From Bacilli bacterium (GTDB lineage: Bacteria; Bacillota_I; Bacilli_A; RFN20; CAG-826): a stretch of 64,000 nt of DNA. Positions 19,400-43,316 of this stretch are shown here, in pieces. The stretch spans positions 8,314-72,313 of the forward strand of contig JAKSHZ010000006.1 in the NCBI GenBank assembly GCA_024399115.1. Reading direction: 5' to 3'. Position 1 is the stretch's first letter; each line of letters starts with the position of its first letter. The notes below the pieces were generated by a model, which saw only the letters and a program-made list of their open reading frames with translations, made no database searches and was not told the DNA's origin. A program made the position numbers and the translations under genes.

Positions 19400-19604
19400 A
19401 TATCGATTCCGATGAAAAAGAGGAGTAATTAAGAATATTTCTCATAGAGAGCTGGGGATGGTGGAAGCCTGGTAGAGATACTTAATGAAGGTCGCTTTGG
19501 AGGAATAGTTACCTAAACTAAATTAGGAAGATTAAGTGCGGAGAAATCCGAACTAAGGTGGTACCACGTTAATAGCGTCCTTAGAAATAAGGGCGTTTTT
19601 ATTT
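19400..19604 (+). promoter_or_regulatory. T-box riboswitch leader (valine-specific) with terminator/antiterminator
   Basis: Extended -10 TGTATAAT at 19390-19397. Stem-I elements (AGAGAG, GGTGGAA). Candidate specifier GUC followed by a purine at 19491-19494. T-box sequence AACTAAGGTGGTACCACG (19551-19568). Terminator CGTCCTTA-gaaa-TAAGGGCG plus T5 (19576-19600), directly upstream of valS. Confidence 0.85.
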
Positions 19605-19619
19605 TAGGAGGAAAAATCT

Positions 19620-22208
19620 ATGTTAGAAAAACGTTATGATCCTCATCAAGTTGAAGAGGGAAAATACGAAAATTGGAAATCTAAAGGTTATTTTACTGCT
19701 GGTGATAAGAGTAAGATTCCTTTTACTATTGTAATTCCTCCACCAAACGTTACAGGTAAATTACATATCGGACACGCTTGGGATACAACAATCCAAGACA
19801 TTATCGCTCGTTATAAGAGATTACAAGGTTTTGATATGTTATATCTCCCTGGTATGGATCATGCTGGAATTGCAACTCAAGCAAAAGTTATGCAAAAGTT
19901 AGTTAATAACGGCATTGATGTAACAAAAATCTCAAGAGAAGAATTCTTAAAATGGGCTTGGGCTTGGAAAGCTGAATACGCAGATAACATCCATAAACAA
20001 TGGGCTAAGATGGGTATTTCATTAGACTACACAAGAGAAAGATTTACTCTTGATGAAGGTTTAAACTACGCTGTTAGAACCGTTTTCGTTAACCTATATA
20101 ATAAAGGATTAATATACCAAGGCGAACGTATTATCAACTGGGACCCAGTCCAACAAACTGCTCTTAGTAACGTCGAAGTTATTCACCAAGATGACCCAGG
20201 ACAAATGTTCTATTTCAAGTATCCAATCGTTGGAGAAGATGATAGCTTAATCGTTGCAACAACTCGTCCAGAAACAATGTTCGGTGACGTCTGTGTTGTT
20301 ATCAACCCTAATGATGAAAACTTAAAACAATACATCGGAAAGAAGGTTATAAATCCAGCTAATGGTGATGAGATTCCAGTCATCGGTGATGAATACGTTG
20401 AAATTGGCTTCGGAACTGGCGCTATGAAATGTACTCCAGCTCACGATCCAAACGACTTTATCATCGGTAAGAAGTATGGTTTCGACATGCCAATTATCTT
20501 TAATAAAGACGCTACAATGAATGAAAAATGTGGCAAATATTGTGGTTTAGACCGCTTTGAATGTAGAAAACAACTCGTTGAAGACATCAAAGCAGCAGGC
20601 AACTTTGTTAAGACAGAAGACATCGTTCACCCTGTTGGACATAGTGAAAGAAATAACTGTGTTGTCGAACCTATGTTAAGTAAGCAATGGTTCGTTAAAA
20701 TGCGTCCTTTAGCTGAGCAAGCATTAGCTAATCAAGATAGCGAAATGAAGGTTAATTTCGTTCCTGAAAGATTTGAAAAAGTTTTCACTTCTTGGATGGA
20801 AAATGTTGAAGACTGGTGTGTCTCTCGTCAACTCTGGTGGGGACATAGAATTCCAGCTTATTACAACAAACATACAGGTGAAGTTAAAGTCTTAATGGAC
20901 CCACCTGAAGATATGGAAAACTGGGAACAAGAAAGTGACGTTCTTGATACTTGGTTCTCAAGTGCTCTTTGGCCTTTCTCAACATTAGGTTGGCCAAATA
21001 ATACAGAAGATTTAGAAAGATATTTCCCAACAGACTGCTTAGTCACTGGCTACGACATCATCTTCTTCTGGGTTTCAAGAATGATTTTCCAATCTCTTGA
21101 AATGACAAAGCAAAGACCATTTAAAAACGTTGTTATTCATGGCCTTGTCCGTGATGAATTAGGCAGAAAAATGTCAAAATCTCTCGGAAATGGTGTTGAT
21201 CCAATGGATGTTATTGAACAATATGGTGCAGATGCACTCAGATATTTCTTAACAACTAATTCAACTCCAGGACAAGATATGAGATATATCGAAGAAAAAG
21301 TCCAAGCTGCAAGTAACTATATTAATAAGATTTGGAATAGTGCACGTTACGTTCTTTCAATCTTACCTGAAGATTTCGCTCCAGAAGCTTTATCTAACGA
21401 AAAATTCTCTCCATTAGACCAATGGATCATCAACCGTTTAGAAGAAACAATCAAAAACGTTACTGCTAACATGGATAAATATGATTTCAACGCTGCTAGT
21501 GGACATTTATATAATTTCGTCTATGACGATTTCTGTGGACAATACCTCGAAATGAGTAAGGTTGCGTTAAGTAGTGATGATGAACAAGTTAAATCAACAA
21601 CTTATCAAGTTCTCTACTTTGTCTTAAAGAACATTATTCTCTTAATCTATCCATACACTCCATTCGTTGCTGAAGAATTATACTTAAATATCCCAGCACA
21701 CGAAGAAAGTGTCATGTTAGAAACTTACCCAACTTACAATAAGTCAATCATTAATGATTCAACTGAAAATCAAGTTAATCTCTTATTCAATATGATTAAA
21801 GATGTAAGAAACTACAAGATTGAGAATAAATTAGCTCCAAACGCTAAACTTGAACTCAAGATTGTTCTTAAATCTAGTGTATTTGATGGTTTCTTAACTT
21901 ATTTAAAGAGATTTACATTCTCGGATGTAGAAATTGTTGACGCTTTAGAAAACTCTGGCGATATCAGCGTTTATGACATTGGTAGCATGTTAATTAAAAA
22001 CGAAGCAGGCAAGGAAGACTTGATGAAAAAACTTGCAAAAGATATCGAAACTATCAAGTCAGAGATCTTCCGTTGTGAAAAAATGTTAGGTAACCCTGGA
22101 TTCGTCCAAAAAGCACCTGCAGAGAAGATCGCTCTTGAAAAGAGCAAGTTAGAACAACACAAGAAAAATCTTGCTGAACTTGAAGCAAAATTATCTGCTT
22201 TAAAATAA
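19620..22208 (+). CDS. valS: Valine--tRNA ligase
   Basis: Class I motifs PPPNVTGKLHIGHA (HIGH) and KMSKSLGN (KMSKS), editing domain, C-terminal coiled coil. Confidence 0.97.
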   Translation: MLEKRYDPHQVEEGKYENWKSKGYFTAGDKSKIPFTIVIPPPNVTGKLHIGHAWDTTIQDIIARYKRLQGFDMLYLPGMDHAGIATQAKVMQKLVNNGIDVTKISREEFLKWAWAWKAEYADNIHKQWAKMGISLDYTRERFTLDEGLNYAVRTVFVNLYNKGLIYQGERIINWDPVQQTALSNVEVIHQDDPGQMFYFKYPIVGEDDSLIVATTRPETMFGDVCVVINPNDENLKQYIGKKVINPANGDEIPVIGDEYVEIGFGTGAMKCTPAHDPNDFIIGKKYGFDMPIIFNKDATMNEKCGKYCGLDRFECRKQLVEDIKAAGNFVKTEDIVHPVGHSERNNCVVEPMLSKQWFVKMRPLAEQALANQDSEMKVNFVPERFEKVFTSWMENVEDWCVSRQLWWGHRIPAYYNKHTGEVKVLMDPPEDMENWEQESDVLDTWFSSALWPFSTLGWPNNTEDLERYFPTDCLVTGYDIIFFWVSRMIFQSLEMTKQRPFKNVVIHGLVRDELGRKMSKSLGNGVDPMDVIEQYGADALRYFLTTNSTPGQDMRYIEEKVQAASNYINKIWNSARYVLSILPEDFAPEALSNEKFSPLDQWIINRLEETIKNVTANMDKYDFNAASGHLYNFVYDDFCGQYLEMSKVALSSDDEQVKSTTYQVLYFVLKNIILLIYPYTPFVAEELYLNIPAHEESVMLETYPTYNKSIINDSTENQVNLLFNMIKDVRNYKIENKLAPNAKLELKIVLKSSVFDGFLTYLKRFTFSDVEIVDALENSGDISVYDIGSMLIKNEAGKEDLMKKLAKDIETIKSEIFRCEKMLGNPGFVQKAPAEKIALEKSKLEQHKKNLAELEAKLSALK

Positions 22209-23181: not shown

Positions 23182-23284
23182 ACTAACGTTGTTGCCTCAC
23201 TAGCTACAACCGCATAGAAAAGGTTTTCAAAGATTTATCTACCTTCATAGCGAGTACTTAGTGAAGAAAAGAAGGAGGCTAATT

Positions 23285-36008: not shown

Positions 36009-38216
36009 ATGGCAGAAAAGGTATACAAAATTAATGGTGGTTATCCACTTCATACATTCGAAGATGTTGAAGACATTTACTTTTCTTATATCCGCAACAA
36101 AAAAGACAGAGATTTAATCAAATCAGCTTATAAATTCATCCTTAAAAAGCATGATGGCCAAACTCGTAGAAGTGGTGAACCTTATTATCATCACTTAATC
36201 GAAGTTGCCTACATTTTAGCTGAATTAAGATCAGGTCCTTCTACAATTTGTGCAGGTTTATTGCACGATGTCGTTGAAGATACAGATGTAACAATTGAAG
36301 AGATTCAAAAAGGTTGGGGCAAAGAAGTTGCTAAAATTGTCGACGCACTTACAAAAATTCAAAGATTAAAATTAAGTAAAATCACAGCTGAAGAATTCGA
36401 AGCAGAAGATCATAGAAAAATCTTCTTAGGAATGGCTAAAGATATTCGTGTTATTATCATCAAACTCGCTGATAGATTACACAATATGAGAACATTAGCA
36501 GTTCTTTCAGATGAACGTAAACTTGCTATTTCAAAGGAAACATTAGAAGTTTTCGTTCCAATCGCTCACCGTTTAGGTCTTGATAAATTAAAGAGTGAAC
36601 TCGAAGATTTATCGCTTAAATATGCTGAACCTGAAAAGTATCAAGAGATTGCATCTTTATTAAAGAAGAAACAAAAAGTCTTATTAAAATCTCTCGAAAG
36701 CTTAAAAAAGAAAATTGCTGATATCTTATTTGAAAGCAATATTCCATTTGAAATCTCAGCTAGAGTTAAATCAATTTATTCAATTTATAGAAAAATGTAC
36801 GTTAGAGGACATCAATTTGATGAAATCTACGATATTCTCGCTCTTAGAATTATCACCAAGACAGAAATTCAATGTTATGAAATTCTTGGTTTAATCCATA
36901 AGACATACACACCAGCTCCAGGCAGATTCAAAGATTACATCGCAATGCCTAAATCAAACATGTATCAATCATTACATACAACAATTGTTGGTGGCGATGG
37001 AAACTTCTATGAAGTCCAAATCAGAACTAGAGAAATGGACGAAATCGCTGAAAGTGGTGTTGCTGCTCACTGGGCATATAAAGAAGGAACAGGTTATAAC
37101 CCTGCCGTCGAACAAAAAGAAATCGAGAACAAATTGCACTGGTTTAGAGACTTTGTCTCAATGTCAGAAGAAAACCAAACAGCTACTGAATATATGGATA
37201 GCTTAAGTAAGGACGTTTTCGATAGATCAATTTACGTCTTCACTCCAAAAGGTAGAGTAGTTGAACTTCCTGTTGGTAGCTGTCCAATCGATTTTGCATA
37301 TAGAATTCATACAAAAATCGGTGATTCTACAGTTGGTGCTTTAGTAAATAAGACTATGGTTCCTCTATATACAGTTCTCAAAACTGGCGATATGGTCGAA
37401 ATTAAGACAAGTAAAACACAAGAAGGACCATCTGAAGGCTGGCTTAAATTCGTTCAATCAAATACTGCTAAAAACCAAATCAAAAAGTACTTAGCAAAGA
37501 AGAATGAAGCATTACTTAGAGAAGAAAAAGTCTCAAAAGGTAAGCAAGCCCTTATCGATGCATTTAGAGATAGAGGCATCGATGAAAAAGGAATGTTGGA
37601 ACATGTCAACAATCCTGAATTATTTAAAGAATATGGCGTTGAAACAGTTGACGATCTCTTCTATCAAGTATTCCAAAGAAATCCTACAGCAAGTGCAGTT
37701 GTTGACTTCTTAGGAATTAAAAAAGAAATCGTTATTCCAACTATTTCAGATAAAAAACCAAGTAGATACGATAACTCTCCTGTTTATTGTAACGGTGCAG
37801 ATAATATTGCAATTACATTGGCAAATTGCTGTACACCAATCCCTGGCGATCCAATAATTGGCTATGTTACAAAGGGAAAAGGTATTAGTGTCCATAGAGC
37901 CGATTGTCCAAATATGGCAAATGAAGGCGAAAGATTAATCGATGTTTTCTGGAAAGAAGGACTCGAATCTCAAACTTATCCAGTTGATATCGTCATTGAA
38001 TCAAGCGATAGAAATAATCTTCTTGTTGATGTTATGCACACACTTACAAATAATCACATCAACATTAAGAGCATCTCTGCTAAGTCAAACGCTCAAACAT
38101 TGACTGCAACTATTTCTTCAACAATCATGATTCAAAATAGCAAAAAATTACAAGATATCTTCGCGGTTCTCCATGGTATTCCTGGAGTCTTCGAAGTTAG
38201 TAGAGTAATCCATTAG
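36009..38216 (+). CDS. relA: Bifunctional (p)ppGpp synthetase/hydrolase Rel
   Basis: HD hydrolase domain (YYHHLIEVA, LHDVVEDT), synthetase domain (RVKSIYSIYRKM, YQSLHTTI), TGS, and C-terminal ACT-like domain. Confidence 0.92.
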   Translation: MAEKVYKINGGYPLHTFEDVEDIYFSYIRNKKDRDLIKSAYKFILKKHDGQTRRSGEPYYHHLIEVAYILAELRSGPSTICAGLLHDVVEDTDVTIEEIQKGWGKEVAKIVDALTKIQRLKLSKITAEEFEAEDHRKIFLGMAKDIRVIIIKLADRLHNMRTLAVLSDERKLAISKETLEVFVPIAHRLGLDKLKSELEDLSLKYAEPEKYQEIASLLKKKQKVLLKSLESLKKKIADILFESNIPFEISARVKSIYSIYRKMYVRGHQFDEIYDILALRIITKTEIQCYEILGLIHKTYTPAPGRFKDYIAMPKSNMYQSLHTTIVGGDGNFYEVQIRTREMDEIAESGVAAHWAYKEGTGYNPAVEQKEIENKLHWFRDFVSMSEENQTATEYMDSLSKDVFDRSIYVFTPKGRVVELPVGSCPIDFAYRIHTKIGDSTVGALVNKTMVPLYTVLKTGDMVEIKTSKTQEGPSEGWLKFVQSNTAKNQIKKYLAKKNEALLREEKVSKGKQALIDAFRDRGIDEKGMLEHVNNPELFKEYGVETVDDLFYQVFQRNPTASAVVDFLGIKKEIVIPTISDKKPSRYDNSPVYCNGADNIAITLANCCTPIPGDPIIGYVTKGKGISVHRADCPNMANEGERLIDVFWKEGLESQTYPVDIVIESSDRNNLLVDVMHTLTNNHINIKSISAKSNAQTLTATISSTIMIQNSKKLQDIFAVLHGIPGVFEVSRVIH

Positions 38217-38225
38217 GAGGGACTT

Positions 38226-39632
38226 ATGAGTATTATAGGAGTTAAAGGAACACACGATGTATTCGGTAGCGAATCATGTGAATTCTCATTCGTAGAGAAT
38301 GTCATGAAACGTATTTGTGAATTCTTTGCATTCAGCGAGGTTAGACCTCCTGTTTTAGAACACTCAGAATTATTCATTCGTGGTGTTGGCGAAGGTAGTG
38401 ATGTTGTCAGAAAAGAAATGTACACCTTTGATGATAAAGGTAACAGATCACTTACATTAAGACCTGAATTCACAGCAGGAATTGCACGTTTAATCGTTCA
38501 AAACAAATTAACAAACTTACAAGAATTACCTATCAAAATGTATTATTGCGGTCCAGTCTTCAGATATGAAAGACCACAATTAGGTAGATATAGACAATTC
38601 AACCAATTCGGTGTTGAATGTGTCGGACATAGTAACCCAGTTGCTGATGTTGACGTTATCTCATTAGCATACACAATCCTCCAATCTTTAGGATTAGAAA
38701 ACGTTACTATCAAAATCAACACACTTGGCGATGAAGAAAGCAGAAATAACTATAAGGTCGCACTTAAAGAATTTTTCGCAAAACATATCGACAAAATGTG
38801 CCCAGATTGCAAACAAAGATTAGAATTAAACCCACTTAGAATTCTCGACTGTAAAGTTCCAGAAGATCAAGAAATCGTTAAAGACGCTCCAAAAATGAGC
38901 GATTACTTAACAGAATCTGCAAAAGAAAAATTCAAATTCGTCCTCGATCTTCTTGAAAGTATGGCTATCCCATATGAAGTCGATGATACTTTAGTAAGAG
39001 GATTAGATTATTACTCAGATACAGTATTTGAATTCCATTATAAATCAAGCAAGGGAAATAACTATGGCGCAATCGGCGCTGGCGGTCACTACGATAAATT
39101 AATTAAAGAAGTAGGTGGCCCTGATGTTCCAGGCGTCGGATTCAGCTTTGGAGTTGAAAGAATCGTTTCAGTTCTTAAAGATGATGAATTATTCCCAGAA
39201 GATATTTATAACGGCTTAGACTTCTACGTAATGCCAATGGGAGTTAAATCTCAAGCTTCTGCAGTTGCTGTTGCTAATGCAGTAAGAATGAATGGCTATT
39301 CAGTAGATATGTGCTTAGACGATGTTAAATTAGGTAGCATGTTCAAAAGAGCTGATAAGAAACACGCAAAATTTGCAATTATTATCGGTGAAAATGAAAT
39401 TGCTAATAGCAAAGTTGTTCTTAAGAACCTTAGAACTCAAGAACAACTCGATGTCGATATCTCAAATTTAAGAGACACAATCGACGAATTATTCCACGAA
39501 TGCGAATGTTGCTGTGGAGATGACTGTGAATGTGAATGCTGCGATGGTGACTGCGATTGCGATTGCGATTGTGACCACGATGCTGACGGACACAAATGTT
39601 GTTGCCACAACCACGATAAAAAGGAGAACTAA
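38226..39632 (+). CDS. hisS: Histidine--tRNA ligase with 45-aa Cys/Asp/His-rich C-terminal extension
   Basis: Class II motifs (LRPEFT, YYCGPVFRYERPQLGRYRQFNQFG, GGHYD, GFSFGVERI) and an anticodon-binding domain ending near ..LRDTIDELF. The tail HECECCCGDDCECECCDGDCDCDCDCDHDADGHKCCCHNHDKKEN follows. Confidence 0.93.
   Translation: MSIIGVKGTHDVFGSESCEFSFVENVMKRICEFFAFSEVRPPVLEHSELFIRGVGEGSDVVRKEMYTFDDKGNRSLTLRPEFTAGIARLIVQNKLTNLQELPIKMYYCGPVFRYERPQLGRYRQFNQFGVECVGHSNPVADVDVISLAYTILQSLGLENVTIKINTLGDEESRNNYKVALKEFFAKHIDKMCPDCKQRLELNPLRILDCKVPEDQEIVKDAPKMSDYLTESAKEKFKFVLDLLESMAIPYEVDDTLVRGLDYYSDTVFEFHYKSSKGNNYGAIGAGGHYDKLIKEVGGPDVPGVGFSFGVERIVSVLKDDELFPEDIYNGLDFYVMPMGVKSQASAVAVANAVRMNGYSVDMCLDDVKLGSMFKRADKKHAKFAIIIGENEIANSKVVLKNLRTQEQLDVDISNLRDTIDELFHECECCCGDDCECECCDGDCDCDCDCDHDADGHKCCCHNHDKKEN
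39552..39575 (+). repeat. Hexanucleotide tandem repeat (TGCGAT)x3 plus TGTGAC inside the hisS tail
   Basis: Read directly: tgcgat tgcgat tgcgat tgtgac, encoding (CD)4. Flanked by related TGTGAA/TGCGAT units. Confidence 0.9.
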
Positions 39633-39633
39633 T

Positions 39634-41367
39634 ATGGAGAGAACTTGTAGAAATACTGAATTATCCATAGCTAATGTTGGCCAAACAGTTACTCTTGTTG
39701 GCTGGGTTAGTAGAAAAAGAAATCTCGGATCAATCTTATTTATTGATTTAAGAGACCGTTCAGGAATTATCCAAATCTACGTTAAAGAAGGAATGGAAAT
39801 TCCAGATGTTAGAAGTGAATATGTCATTTCTGTCACAGGTGAAGTTGCAAAAAGAGCGCAACCAAACCCAAAAATGAAAACAGGTGATATCGAAATTATC
39901 GCTTCAAAAATTGAATTAGTTAACACAGCTAAGACAACTCCTCTTTTAATCCAAGATGATACAGATGCTTTAGAAGAAGTTAGATTAAAATATCGTTACT
40001 TGGACTTAAGAAGACCTTGCATGCAAAAGATTTTCGATATTCGTGACCAACTCAAAATGATCACTCACACTTATTTACATAGTTTAAATTTCTGTGAAAT
40101 TGAAACTCCAATGTTATGTGCATCTTCTCCAGAAGGCGCTAAAGAATACTTAGTCCCATCTAGGTTACATCACGGTAGTTTCTATGCTCTTCCACAATCC
40201 CCACAAATGTTTAAACAATTATTAATGGTCGGCGGATTTGAAAGATATTATCAAATTGCAAGATGCTTCAGAGATGAAGACTTACGTGCAGATAGACAAC
40301 CAGATTTCACTCAAATCGATATTGAAACATCATTCTTAGATCAACAACAATTCTTAACAATGATGGAAGAATTAATCAGAAGATATTTCAAAGAAATCGT
40401 TAACTATGATGTTCAACTTCCATTACGTCAAATGACTTATAAAGAAGCAATGGAAAGATTTGGTAGTGATAAACCTGATACAAGATTCGGTTTTGAACTC
40501 CATAACTTAAAAGAAGTATTCAAAAACACAACTTTCGAAGCTTATATATCAGCAGAAGCAATTCGCGGTATCTCAATTGACGGCGTCGCTGATAAAACAA
40601 CTAGAAAGACAATTGATGAATTAACTCTTGAAGCAAAGAAATTCGGTCTTGGTGGTTTAGCAGTTATTAAGAAAGAAAACGGTGAACTCACAGGTTCATT
40701 CGTTAAATTCTTAAGTGATGACGAAAAGAGCGCGATTATCTCTACATTCGAACTCAAAGATAATGACATCGTTATCATTGCAGCAGGTAAAGATAACAGA
40801 GTAACTCCTCTCCTTGGCGCATTAAGACTTAAATACGCTAAATCATTAGGATTAATTAAACCAAATACATATGACTTATTATGGGTCGTTGACTTCCCAA
40901 TGTTTGAAAGAGATGTCGAAACAAATTCAATCGTTGCAACTCATCACCCATTCACTCGTCCAAGAGACGAAGACTTAAAATGGATGGATGAAGATCCTAC
41001 TCAAATGCTCTCATACGCATACGATATCGTTATTAATGGTTATGAAGCAGGTGGTGGTACACTCCGTATCTACGACCAAAACGTACAAAAGAAGATCTTC
41101 AATATCCTCGGACTCAGTGACCAAGAAGTTCAAGATAAATTCGGTTACTTTGTAAACGCACTCCAATATGGAACTCCTCCACATGCTGGTATGGCATTTG
41201 GATTAGATAGATTGACAATGATTTTAGCAGGAACAGAAAATATCCGTGACGTCATTGCATTCCCTAAAAACTTAGCTGGCGTATGCCCTATGTCAGGAGC
41301 ACCAAATCAAGTTACAAGACAACAAGTTGAAGATTTGGGAATTAAATTTATGAAAGAGGAAGAATAA
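39634..41367 (+). CDS. aspS: Aspartate--tRNA ligase
   Basis: MERTCRNTEL.. start with an AAGGAG SD, 1 nt after the hisS stop. OB-fold N-domain, class II motifs (FRDEDLRADRQPDFTQID, GLDRL), bacterial GAD insertion. The ORF-track start at 39514 is an out-of-frame read of the hisS tail. Confidence 0.95.
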   Translation: MERTCRNTELSIANVGQTVTLVGWVSRKRNLGSILFIDLRDRSGIIQIYVKEGMEIPDVRSEYVISVTGEVAKRAQPNPKMKTGDIEIIASKIELVNTAKTTPLLIQDDTDALEEVRLKYRYLDLRRPCMQKIFDIRDQLKMITHTYLHSLNFCEIETPMLCASSPEGAKEYLVPSRLHHGSFYALPQSPQMFKQLLMVGGFERYYQIARCFRDEDLRADRQPDFTQIDIETSFLDQQQFLTMMEELIRRYFKEIVNYDVQLPLRQMTYKEAMERFGSDKPDTRFGFELHNLKEVFKNTTFEAYISAEAIRGISIDGVADKTTRKTIDELTLEAKKFGLGGLAVIKKENGELTGSFVKFLSDDEKSAIISTFELKDNDIVIIAAGKDNRVTPLLGALRLKYAKSLGLIKPNTYDLLWVVDFPMFERDVETNSIVATHHPFTRPRDEDLKWMDEDPTQMLSYAYDIVINGYEAGGGTLRIYDQNVQKKIFNILGLSDQEVQDKFGYFVNALQYGTPPHAGMAFGLDRLTMILAGTENIRDVIAFPKNLAGVCPMSGAPNQVTRQQVEDLGIKFMKEEE

Positions 41368-41369
41368 TT

Positions 41370-43316
41370 ATGACAAACATCGACAAATTATCAATTGCAA
41401 CAATTAGAAGTTTAGCGATCGACACAATTAACAAAGCAAAATCAGGTCACCCTGGCATGGCTTTAGGTAGTGCACCAATTGCATACACATTATTCACTAA
41501 ACACTTAGTTGCAGCTCCAAGTGATTCAACTTGGTTCAATAGAGACCGTTTTGTTCTCTCAGCAGGCCACGCATCTGCATTACTTTACAGCATGTTACAC
41601 CTCTGTGGATACAAAGTCTCAGTGGATGATATGAAATCATTCAGACAATTAGACAGCAAAACTCCAGGTCACCCAGAATTCGGTTGGACTGATGGTGTTG
41701 ATGCTACTAGTGGTCCTTTAGGACAAGGTATCTCACAAGCTGTTGGTATGGCAATTGCTGAAACAATGGTCAACGCCCAATATCCAGAAGCATGCAATCA
41801 CTACACATATGCTTTATGTGGTGATGGCTGTTTACAAGAAGGTATCTCACAAGAAGCTATCTCACTTGCTGGACACTTAAAACTCAACAAATTAATCCTT
41901 TTCTATGACGCAAATAACGTCACTCTCGATGGTGGCTTAGACCTCTCATTCTCAGAAGACGTCAAAGCAAGAGTCATCGCAAGTGGTTGGAATGTTTTAG
42001 AAGTTGAAGATGGTAATGACATCGACGCAATTGATGCTGCTATCGTTGAAGCTAAATCAAGTGACAAACCAACTATGATTATGGTTCACACAGTTATCGG
42101 CTTTGGTAGTGCTAAACAAGGTACAAATAAAGTCCACGGTAACCCTTTAGGTGATGAAGATGGTAAGGCTGCAAAATTATCTTATGGCTTCGATCACGAT
42201 AACTTCTACGTTCCAGAAGAAGTTTATGAAAACTTCAAAAATACATTCATCGCTCGTGGTGAACAAGCAAAAGCTGTCTATGAAGCAAAAGTCGCTGCTT
42301 GGAAAGATTCTAACCCAGAAGCATATGCAAGTTTCGTAGATGCTTGCAAAGCAAAGAAATATGATGTTGAATATCCTGAATTCGTTGCAGGTAGCTCAAC
42401 TTCATCACGTGTTGCTAGTGGAAAAGCCCTTAACTTCTTCATGAGCAAACTCTCTAACTTATTCGGTGGTTCTGCTGACGTCGCGGGTTCAGTTATGACT
42501 AAACTTGATAATGGTAGCAACTACTTCGTCGATAATAGAGGCGGACATAACTTAAACTGGGGTATTAGAGAATTCGCAATGGCAAGTGCTCAAAACGGTA
42601 TGCTTTTACACGGTGGTGTCAGATCTTATGTTGGCTGTTTCTTCGTCTTCTCTGACTATATGAAACCAGCTATCAGAATGGCAGCATTAAGCCATTTACC
42701 AGCAATCTACTTATTCTCACACGACTCAATCGCTGTTGGTGAAGATGGTCCTACACATGAACCAATCGAACAATTAGCAATGTTAAGAAGTATTCCTAAC
42801 GTTGACACAATTAGACCAGCTGATGAAAGAGAAACTTACGCTGCATGGAACGCTGCTTTAGATAGCGAAAAACACCCAACAGCATTAATCCTTTCAAGAC
42901 AAAACTTACCTTTATTAGAAGGTTCTTCTAAAGAAGGTGTTTACGCTGGTGCTTATGTTATCTCTAAAGAAGCAAAGAAACCAGAATTCATTTTAGTAGC
43001 TACTGGTAGTGAAGTTAGCTTAGCAGTTGACGCTCAAAAATTATTAGCAGCTGATGGAATCGATGTTAGAGTCGTTTCAATGCCTTGCTGGAGCTATTTT
43101 GATGCTCAATCAGCAGACTACAAGAAATCAGTCTTCTGCTTAGATAGAGATCACATCGTTTCAATCGAAATGTTATCTTCATTCGGTTGGGATAAATATG
43201 CAGCACATCACGTTTGCTTAGATTCGTTCGGTAAATCAGCACCTGCTAAAGACGTTATCAACGCATTTGGCTTCACAGCTGATAAAGTCGCTGCGTTCGT
43301 TAAAAACATTAAATAA
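41370..43316 (+). CDS. tkt: Transketolase
   Basis: SGHPGMALGSAP, GDGCLQEGISQEA (TPP motif), EDGPTHEPIEQLA. Confidence 0.95.
   Translation: MTNIDKLSIATIRSLAIDTINKAKSGHPGMALGSAPIAYTLFTKHLVAAPSDSTWFNRDRFVLSAGHASALLYSMLHLCGYKVSVDDMKSFRQLDSKTPGHPEFGWTDGVDATSGPLGQGISQAVGMAIAETMVNAQYPEACNHYTYALCGDGCLQEGISQEAISLAGHLKLNKLILFYDANNVTLDGGLDLSFSEDVKARVIASGWNVLEVEDGNDIDAIDAAIVEAKSSDKPTMIMVHTVIGFGSAKQGTNKVHGNPLGDEDGKAAKLSYGFDHDNFYVPEEVYENFKNTFIARGEQAKAVYEAKVAAWKDSNPEAYASFVDACKAKKYDVEYPEFVAGSSTSSRVASGKALNFFMSKLSNLFGGSADVAGSVMTKLDNGSNYFVDNRGGHNLNWGIREFAMASAQNGMLLHGGVRSYVGCFFVFSDYMKPAIRMAALSHLPAIYLFSHDSIAVGEDGPTHEPIEQLAMLRSIPNVDTIRPADERETYAAWNAALDSEKHPTALILSRQNLPLLEGSSKEGVYAGAYVISKEAKKPEFILVATGSEVSLAVDAQKLLAADGIDVRVVSMPCWSYFDAQSADYKKSVFCLDRDHIVSIEMLSSFGWDKYAAHHVCLDSFGKSAPAKDVINAFGFTADKVAAFVKNIK

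What the first reader, a model, noticed from the sequence alone, without database searches (positions are those of the whole stretch)
39495..39632. Metallothionein-like Cys/Asp/His tail fused to histidyl-tRNA synthetase
The HisS core ends at about residue 423 (..LRDTIDELF), the normal length for bacterial HisS. The ORF then continues for 45 residues: HECECCCGDDCECECCDGDCDCDCDCDHDADGHKCCCHNHDKKEN. I count 15 Cys, 11 Asp and 5 His. The frame is intact and ends at a TAA only 1 nt before the aspS start, so the tail should be translated. I do not know of such a dense thiolate/carboxylate/imidazole cluster on any aaRS. It looks like a metal-binding (Zn/Cu/Cd/Fe-S) or redox-sensing appendage. Placing it on the histidine-charging enzyme invites hypotheses linking metal status to His-tRNA charging or to the adjacent Rel stringent factor; relA-hisS-aspS are nearly contiguous, with only 9 nt between the relA stop and the hisS start (1 nt between hisS and aspS).
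Basis: seen in the sequence. Interest (0 to 1): 0.6.

Follow-up and report, generated by a model that had tools for sequence, protein, structure and literature searches.

The report
Cysteine-rich metal-binding-type tail on HisRS
The only histidyl-tRNA synthetase of this uncultured gut bacterium really ends in a 45-residue tail that is one-third cysteine; a whole clade of related gut and rumen Bacilli has inherited and reshaped such a tail, it most likely binds zinc-type metal ions, and I found no paper describing it.

Summary
hisS (window 38226-39632, +) encodes a normal class IIa HisRS core (residues 1-423) followed in frame by 45 residues with 15 Cys, 11 Asp, 5 His and 5 Glu. Contigs from three other samples carry the tail with no indel. 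Three of its four variants are synonymous.

The tail is a lineage trait. In a one-genome-per-species sample of the same order, 33 of 50 HisRS carry a Cys/His tail, in four families. Among the 121 closest database homologues, 95 have at least 3 Cys. Length and sequence change fast, here through a (TGCGAT)n repeat, but composition and reading frame are kept. Cys plus acidic residues is the constant part; His is optional (44 of 121 tails have none).

The tail is predicted disordered and matches no Pfam, PDB or Atlas entry. The best reading is a SlyD-, HspA-, HMA4- or metallothionein-like multi-site metal-binding appendage. Its role is inferred, not shown.

The rel-hisS-aspS order is ancestral and is also present in tail-less relatives.

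This scan has already noted the same kind of tail in at least eight other genomes. I found no publication.

The parts
36009..38216 (+). rel (bifunctional RelA/SpoT homologue), upstream gene of the same tight gene row
   Evidence: Pfam HD_4, RelA_SpoT, TGS and ACT_4. Its stop lies 9 nt before the hisS ATG.
38226..39494 (+). hisS core: class IIa histidyl-tRNA synthetase, residues 1-423
   Evidence: Pfam PF13393 (4.8e-44) and PF03129 (1.2e-14). Best PDB match is 1qe0, E 6.7e-109. The AF2 core is mostly confident and the last helix spans 412-425. It is the only hisS in the assembly.
39495..39629 (+). Cys/Asp/His/Glu tail, residues 424-468 (15 Cys, 11 Asp, 5 His, 5 Glu; 16 acidic against 3 basic residues)
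   Evidence: pLDDT is about 30 for 426-468. No Pfam, PDB or Atlas match. No indel in three other samples, and 3 of 4 variants are synonymous.
39539..39587 (+). Hexamer/dodecamer tandem repeat (TGCGAT, 5.3 copies, at 39540-39571) encoding the (Asp-Cys)n block; it is the lineage-specific expansion that makes this tail about 13 residues longer than those of its two congeners
   Evidence: TRF. Codon alignment with L003 and L004. The (DC)n copy number differs among 82-88% identical homologues P0001-P0009.
39621..39626 (+). AAGGAG Shine-Dalgarno sequence of aspS, lying inside the last hisS codons (Lys-Lys-Glu-Asn), 7 nt before the aspS ATG
   Evidence: Sequence. Tails and tail-less C-termini of relatives end in similar Lys/Gly/Glu codons just before aspS. 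The function is inferred.
39630..39632 (+). hisS stop codon TAA
39634..41367 (+). aspS (bacterial-type AspRS with GAD domain), start 1 nt after the hisS stop
   Evidence: Pfam tRNA-synt_2, tRNA_anti-codon and GAD. In relatives the N-terminus aligns from residue 1 at this ATG.

Best explanation
The tail is an intrinsically disordered, strongly anionic appendage with many thiolate/imidazole/carboxylate sites. [quoted passage not shown] It most likely binds several soft or borderline divalent metal ions per chain and orders itself only when loaded. Zn(II) is the most likely metal; Ni, Co, Cd or Cu(I) are possible. From the stoichiometries of metallothioneins and SmtA, its 20 Cys/His ligands would hold roughly 5-7 ions (inference). 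It is not needed for catalysis, because several lineages lost it. It probably acts as a cytosolic metal buffer or reserve carried by an abundant essential enzyme, possibly also shielding HisRS from metal interference. Shown here: the tail is real, in frame, selected, clade-wide, specific to HisRS in this genome, and predicted disordered. Inferred: metal binding, which metal, and the physiological role.
For: Composition far beyond chance.

The frame and ligand-class composition are kept while sequence and length change. Tails occur in 33 of 50 HisRS of the order sample, in families f1, f4, f5 and f6. 95 of 121 closest homologues have at least 3 Cys, 90 have a CC pair and 43 have a CCCG motif. 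Replacements between congeners stay within ligand or acidic classes: C/H, E/D, K/E, N/C.

Population variants in the tail: 3 of 4 are synonymous against an expected 13% (P = 0.008), with no indels in three other samples.

On a quick ML tree all 33 tails fall in one 40-row clade (SH-aLRT 91), and the 10 rows outside it are tail-less. This fits one origin followed by losses.

AF2 gives pLDDT of about 30 for 426-468 next to a confident core, as expected for a segment that folds only around metal.

Known analogues use the same chemistry. The di-Cys motifs plus a His stretch in the plant HMA4 C-terminus give nanomolar Zn affinity (PMC6255694, title and abstract as listed). The His-rich GroEL1 tail binds Cu (PMC10170517). 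The SecA C-terminal tail carries a small metal-binding domain that modulates activity (PMC6620043). The SlyD and HspA tails are cited from my own knowledge.
Against: No metal-binding measurement exists. No Pfam metallothionein or other family matches the tail here or in relatives.

Tail presence does not track the metal genes I tested across 61 relatives. HypA is over the cut-off in 6 of 33 tail-bearing and 6 of 17 tail-less genomes. ZnuA is present in 8 of 33 and 2 of 17.

A pure storage role does not explain why the tail always sits on HisRS. Repeated losses (7 of 34 rows of family f1) show it is dispensable. No RNA or protein evidence of expression was available.
Confidence: 0.6

Rival explanations
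1. Regulatory switch. The metal or redox state of the tail changes tRNA binding or aminoacylation, for example when the polyanionic apo-tail occupies the basic tRNA-binding face of the anticodon-binding domain. Thiophilic-metal or oxidant stress would then lower His-tRNA charging and feed uncharged tRNA-His to Rel.
For: The tail starts directly after the last helix of the anticodon-binding domain. It has 16 acidic and 3 basic residues. It is fixed on HisRS across four families rather than moving to other proteins. The SecA C-terminal metal-binding tail is a precedent for autoinhibition (PMC6620043).
Against: rel adjacency carries no weight, because it is ancestral and present in tail-less relatives too. 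Tail length ranges from about 5 to 88 residues with no fixed spacing, which is awkward for a docking switch. No core Cys/His column co-varies with tail presence. Several lineages lost the tail.
Confidence: 0.15
2. Self-protection of HisRS. The tail scavenges transition metals locally, so that metal-histidine complexes or free metal do not inhibit the enzyme whose substrate is itself a strong chelator.
For: This would explain why HisRS specifically carries the tail. The genome has an ArsR-type regulator and P1B-ATPase pair, so it does face thiophilic metals.
Against: There is no direct evidence. Tail-less relatives live in similar habitats.
Confidence: 0.1
3. Iron-sulfur cluster or disulfide redox sensor rather than a Zn-type site.
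For: Dense Cys runs (CCC, CxC) in strict anaerobes. An aaRS with a 4Fe-4S cluster exists (Thermotoga TrpRS, from my own knowledge).
Against: There is no canonical cluster motif. Cys spacing is not conserved. Many tails are His- and acid-rich, which suits Zn or Ni better. No Fe-S Pfam hit.
Confidence: 0.08
4. Functionless low-complexity expansion produced by replication slippage at the 3' end of hisS and tolerated because it is disordered.
For: A hexamer tandem repeat lies in the tail. Copy number varies among close homologues. Losses are frequent.
Against: The Cys-encoding frame is always the one kept, although the repeat is open in all three forward frames. Cys reaches 23% of pooled tail residues against 1.5% in the cores. 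The trait persists across four families. Population variants are biased towards synonymous changes.
Confidence: 0.08
5. Codon-level device. Runs of His, Asp and Cys codons just before aspS stall ribosomes when charged tRNA is scarce and so tune the translational coupling of aspS, possibly replacing a T-box.
For: The aspS Shine-Dalgarno sequence lies in the last hisS codons and its ATG is 1 nt after the stop. No T-box precedes hisS in this window.
Against: 44 of 121 tails have no His, and Asp is only 7.7% of pooled tail residues. T-boxes precede hisS in four tail-bearing relatives, L019, L025, L026 and L027. L024 has a His tail with no aspS downstream. The RNA of the region folds no better than shuffles, z = -1.07.
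Confidence: 0.03

Closest known systems
SlyD C-terminal metal-binding tail (E. coli and H. pylori FKBP-type PPIase)
   Same: It is an unstructured C-terminal tail of about 50 residues rich in His, Cys, Asp and Glu. It is appended to a housekeeping enzyme, binds several Ni or Zn ions, and varies in length between species (my own knowledge).
   Different: The carrier is an FKBP/IF chaperone that works with HypB. Here the carrier is an aaRS. The genome's only FKBP domain lies in a 425-aa ORF at window position about 15660, which I take to be trigger factor from its size (not checked further). Tail presence does not follow HypA. This tail is far more Cys-rich (33%) than His-rich (11%).
Plant HMA2/HMA4 C-terminal extension (di-Cys motifs plus a His stretch)
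   Same: It has repeated CC dipeptides in an acidic, disordered C-terminal extension, with nanomolar Zn(II) affinity (PMC6255694, as listed). CC occurs in 90 of 121 HisRS tails.
   Different: The carrier is a eukaryotic membrane P1B-ATPase and there is no homology. Function there is tied to Zn transport.
Helicobacter pylori HspA (GroES) domain B and mycobacterial GroEL1 His-rich tail
   Same: A lineage-specific His/Cys-rich tail is added to an abundant essential protein and acts as a metal reservoir or handler (GroEL1: PMC10170517; HspA from my own knowledge).
   Different: The carriers are chaperonins, the tails are mainly His-rich, and each is restricted to one genus or family.
Bacterial metallothioneins (SmtA/BmtA) and metallothioneins in general
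   Same: About 30% Cys, CxC and CC motifs, no aromatic residues, and folding only around metal-thiolate clusters.
   Different: Metallothioneins are free-standing small proteins with fixed Cys spacing. No Pfam metallothionein model matches this tail or those of relatives.
SecA C-terminal tail with metal-binding domain
   Same: A flexible linker plus a small Cys/His metal site at the C-terminus of a housekeeping enzyme, which modulates its activity (PMC6620043).
   Different: That is a single conserved site with fixed Cys/His spacing (a detail from my own knowledge) and defined partners, not a variable multi-site tail.

Membership tests
Class IIa histidyl-tRNA synthetase (HisRS) | HisRS catalytic domain with class II motifs, plus the C-terminal HGTP anticodon-binding domain | tested here: met
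   PF13393 4.8e-44 at residues 10-313 and PF03129 1.2e-14 at 333-421. 1qe0 E 6.7e-109.
Class IIa histidyl-tRNA synthetase (HisRS) | It is the housekeeping copy, not a HisZ-like paralogue | tested here: met
   It is the only full-length match in the 91.5%-complete assembly. It sits in the conserved rel-hisS-aspS position.
Metallothioneins (Pfam families, including bacterial SmtA type) | Sequence match to a metallothionein profile with fixed Cys spacing | tested here: not met
   hmmscan at E <= 1 on the tail and on six relatives returns only aaRS domains on the tail-bearing proteins.
Metallothioneins (functional class) | Binds several metal ions in thiolate clusters | not testable with these tools
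   Needs ICP-MS and spectroscopy on purified protein.
SlyD/HspA-type metal-binding tails (functional class, not a homology family) | Disordered C-terminal extension rich in His, Cys, Asp and Glu on an otherwise complete housekeeping protein | tested here: met
   Composition. pLDDT of about 30 for 426-468. The core is complete at F423.
SlyD/HspA-type metal-binding tails (functional class, not a homology family) | Functional partnership with Ni-enzyme maturation (HypA/HypB) | tested here: not met
   G000 has hypB-hypA, but across relatives HypA is found in 6 of 33 tail-bearing and 6 of 17 tail-less genomes.
Iron-sulfur proteins | Recognisable cluster-binding motif or Pfam Fer4-type match in the tail | tested here: not met
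   No such hit. Cys spacing is not conserved among relatives.

The most novel reading that the evidence does not exclude
In a whole clade of anaerobic gut and rumen Bacilli, the HisRS tail is a metal- or redox-gated autoinhibitory switch. Loading, or oxidation, of its thiolates changes tRNA-His charging. This would wire thiophilic-metal or oxidant stress directly into translation and the Rel stringent response, a sensing route not known for any aminoacyl-tRNA synthetase.
Probability: 0.12. Interest if true: 0.85.

Novelty: new variant of a known kind. Interest (0 to 1): 0.55.

Why it matters
Aminoacyl-tRNA synthetases are among the best-studied enzymes. Their appended domains usually bind RNA or partner proteins. 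A metallothionein-like tail kept for a long time on the sole HisRS of many gut and rumen species points to an unexplored link between trace-metal economy and the translation apparatus in small-genome anaerobes. Zinc, nickel and copper are scarce in sulfidic gut habitats and toxic in excess. The question is easy to test, because full-length and tail-deleted enzyme can be made recombinantly. The tail could also serve as a natural, compact, genetically encoded multi-metal chelator.

Tried and rejected
Tail-only similarity searches all returned nothing: the word-indexed search of 5.8 G proteins, phmmer against 1.84 G representatives, PDB, ESM Atlas and Pfam. These methods are nearly blind to short low-complexity queries, so the blanks say nothing about novelty or about other carrier proteins.

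No RNA holder was listed for this stretch, so there is no expression evidence either way. Run X5, from a second study, covers only up to 39428 and says nothing about the tail. All laid runs are contigs, not raw reads, so rare variants are not excluded.

T-box replacement idea: rejected.

Co-occurrence with HypA or ZnuA: no association. FUR and ZnuA were not found in G000. Both congeners have ZnuA, so the G000 blank may reflect incompleteness (91.5% complete).

Whether tail-less relatives carry the tail on another protein: nothing was found in five genomes. The same query rang in only 3 of 5 tail-bearing controls, once on an Opp-type ABC ATPase. This test is inconclusive.

RNA structure in the tail region: z = -1.07. 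Promoter and terminator scan: at chance level. Core Cys/His columns co-varying with the tail: none.

The second-densest Cys/His ORF in the genome (contig C147) overlaps a large transporter gene on the other strand and is spurious.

The careful ML tree did not finish, so a quick tree was used. Tail columns were not removed from its alignment.

Full report
OBSERVATION. The ORF at window 38226..39632 (+) encodes 468 residues. Pfam finds the HisRS catalytic domain at residues 10-313 and the HGTP anticodon-binding domain at 333-421. The closest solved structure, S. aureus HisRS 1qe0, is 420 residues long and aligns to query residues 7-414. The enzyme is therefore complete at F423. Forty-five further residues follow in frame (window 39495-39629): 15 Cys, 11 Asp, 5 His, 5 Glu, 3 Gly, 3 Lys, 2 Asn and 1 Ala. 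The stop TAA is at 39630-39632 and the aspS ATG at 39634. The rel stop ends at 38216, 9 nt before the hisS ATG.

Cys is 1.42% of this genome's long ORFs, so 15 Cys in 45 residues has P = 4e-17. The tail is the densest Cys+His 25-mer among all 2684 ORFs of at least 100 aa in the 2.13-Mb assembly. The next candidate is a spurious ORF that overlaps a transporter gene on the other strand. The assembly holds only this one hisS.

NOT AN ARTEFACT. Thirteen public runs hold all or part of the stretch. I laid contigs from four of them. Three other samples of the same study bridge the whole tail with no gap: X2 record 6, X3 record 9 and X4 record 17. These contigs show four substitutions inside the tail. 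Three are third-position synonymous changes (C426, C430, A453) and one is D464N. Only 13% of all possible single-base changes in the tail are synonymous, so P = 0.008. This is a small sample, and these are contigs rather than raw reads. It still argues for translation in this frame under purifying selection.

A CLADE-WIDE TRAIT. I searched one genome per species in the same order (61 genomes) and read the C-termini of 50 HisRS.
- 33 of the 50 carry a Cys/His-rich tail: 27 of 34 in the window's own family, and 1/1, 4/4 and 1/1 in three other families.
- None of the 10 rows from three further families has one.
- The two congeners have 32-33-residue tails that share the opening H-E-C-C-C-G-D-D-C block and the closing D-K-K-E-N with this one.
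- Among the 120 closest proteins in the 5.8-billion-protein collection (62-88% identity), plus the query, tails run from 5 to 88 residues with a median of 25. Of these 121, 95 have at least 3 Cys, 90 have a CC pair, 62 have CCC and 43 have CCCG. Only 48 have at least 3 His, and 44 have none.
- Pooled tail composition is C 23%, E 22%, H 12%, K 11%, G 11% and D 8%. The cores have C 1.5% and H 1.4%.

Named records with the tail are all gut, rumen or faecal MAGs labelled "Bacilli bacterium" or "Bacillales bacterium". HisRS from cultured Bacillales and from Clostridia found by the same scan lack it. The one exception is a divergent "Clostridia bacterium" record, L038.

On a quick ML tree of the 50 proteins, all 33 tail-bearing rows lie in one 40-row clade (SH-aLRT 91). 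The 10 rows outside it are tail-less, and well-supported branches force at least 5 state changes. The simplest history is one gain followed by repeated loss and remodelling. Caveats: this is a gene tree from a quick search, it is midpoint-rooted, and the tail columns were not removed.

HOW IT EVOLVES. Tandem Repeats Finder reports 5.3 copies of TGCGAT at 39540-39571. This block encodes (Asp-Cys)n and is the roughly 13-codon insertion that separates this tail from those of its congeners. Homologues at 82-88% identity differ mainly in the copy number of the same unit. Other families show other repeat units. Length therefore changes by slippage. The repeat is open in all three forward frames, yet the Cys-encoding frame is the one always kept. 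Replacements between congeners stay within ligand or acidic classes: C/H, E/D, K/E and N/C. Selection appears to act on composition, not on exact sequence.

The last four codons (Lys-Lys-Glu-Asn) contain AAGGAG at 39621-39626, 7 nt before the aspS ATG. Tails and tail-less C-termini of relatives likewise end in Lys/Gly/Glu codons just ahead of aspS. I read the conserved ending as the aspS ribosome-binding site, not as part of the metal-binding unit (inference).

STRUCTURE AND DATABASE MATCHES. AlphaFold2 with a 38-sequence alignment gives a mostly confident core, with a last helix at 412-425 and pLDDT of about 30 for 426-468. The tail matches nothing in Pfam, even at E <= 1 and including six relatives. 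It also matches nothing in PDB, the ESM Atlas or the two large protein collections. These blanks are expected for short low-complexity queries and carry little weight. No in-frame start codon lies in or just before the tail, so here it cannot be made as a separate peptide.

1. Rel adjacency. tblastn finds rel upstream in 29 of 30 related loci and aspS downstream in 29 of 30. This includes tail-less loci. The gene order is ancestral and says nothing about the tail.
2. Histidine link. His is optional in the tails.
3. T-box replacement. This window has a T-box only before valS (19403-19585). Four tail-bearing relatives do have a T-box before hisS.
4. Codon or RNA device for aspS coupling. Asp is only 8% of pooled tail residues. 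One His-tailed hisS (L024) has no aspS behind it. The RNA folds no better than shuffles, z = -1.07.
5. Nickel-chaperone partnership, as for SlyD. G000 has hypB-hypA. No NiFe hydrogenase large subunit was found. The only FKBP match lies in a 425-aa ORF, which I take to be trigger factor from its size, so I see no SlyD. Across relatives HypA is present in 6 of 33 tail-bearing and 6 of 17 tail-less genomes.
6. Zinc uptake. ZnuA-type proteins occur in 8 of 33 tail-bearing and 2 of 17 tail-less genomes, which is no clear pattern. No FUR-family regulator was found in G000.
7. Co-evolving ligands in the core. None were found. C192, C195 and C209 are invariant in tail-bearing and tail-less enzymes alike.

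INTERPRETATION. Shown here: the tail is a real, translated and selected extension of the sole HisRS. It is disordered and polyanionic, with Cys and often His packed into it. It is inherited across at least four families of uncultured gut and rumen Bacilli, and it is dispensable in some lineages.

Inferred: it binds several soft or borderline metal ions. The same chemistry does this in the SlyD and HspA tails (my own knowledge). It also does so in the di-Cys/His C-terminus of plant HMA4 (PMC6255694), the GroEL1 tail (PMC10170517) and metallothioneins. My best guess for the role is metal buffering or reserve on an abundant enzyme (confidence 0.6 for metal binding as such). Rival roles are a metal- or redox-gated switch on charging, self-protection of an enzyme whose substrate is a chelator, an Fe-S or disulfide sensor, and a neutral slippage product. 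None of these can be separated without biochemistry. That the tail sits on HisRS throughout the clade is the one fact that a pure storage role does not explain.

NOVELTY AND EARLIER NOTES. Four full-text searches found no paper describing such a tail on HisRS or any aaRS. This scan has already recorded the same kind of tail on HisRS in at least eight other genomes, with the same reading. My results agree with those notes. They add the population-variant evidence, the aspS ribosome-binding-site explanation of the conserved ending, the Cys-over-His result, and the negative tests for T-box, HypA, ZnuA and rel linkage. One earlier claim, that cultured Turicibacter carries a tail, I did not test. 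I class the finding as a new variant (a new carrier) of a known kind of metal-binding tail.

Noticed in passing
window 19403-19585 and 19620-22208; 23198-23268: A T-box leader (108 bits) lies directly upstream of an 862-aa class I synthetase with the ValRS C-terminal arm (valS). A ribosomal protein L21 leader lies at 23198-23268.
   Followed up: partly
window 38799-38852 (HisRS residues C192, C195, C209): A C-x2-C-x13-C triad in the HisRS insertion domain is invariant in all 50 order-level HisRS, with or without tail. It is also present in S. aureus HisRS 1qe0. It may be a structural metal site of Bacilli HisRS and is independent of the tail.
   Followed up: partly
L005, L017; P0049, P0061, P0099, P0113: The longest tails of some relatives (about 85-115 residues) end in a conserved Cys module with the pattern F-P-C...C-P-C-G...C-[ED]-C...C-[KE]-C. 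It looks like a folded mini-domain rather than a repeat. It has no Pfam match.
   Followed up: partly
L116 4538-7074 (G000 contig C2): An ArsR/SmtB-family regulator with a Cys-rich insert lies 2 nt upstream of a 727-aa P1B-type ATPase with an HMA domain and a CPC motif. This is a CadC/CadA-like thiophilic-metal efflux pair.
   Followed up: partly
L137 1390-3480 (G000 contig C113): A hypB-hypA pair is followed by a ferredoxin-domain protein. HypB has no His-rich stretch, and no NiFe hydrogenase large subunit was found in the 91.5%-complete assembly. The nickel enzyme it serves is unidentified.
   Followed up: partly
window 39514-39633: The aspS reading frame is open through the hisS tail from a GTG at 39514. 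This is a by-product of the stop-free repeat. Homologues align from the ATG at 39634.
   Followed up: yes
window 36009-43316: rel, hisS, aspS and a transketolase gene are packed with 9-, 1- and 2-nt spacers, and no promoter or terminator signal rises above chance. They are probably one transcript.
   Followed up: partly
L038: A MAG labelled "Clostridia bacterium" has a 523-aa HisRS (40% identity) with a tail of about 100 residues that is Asn/Lys/Asp-rich and holds scattered CxC motifs. It is either an independent gain or a mislabelled relative.
   Followed up: no
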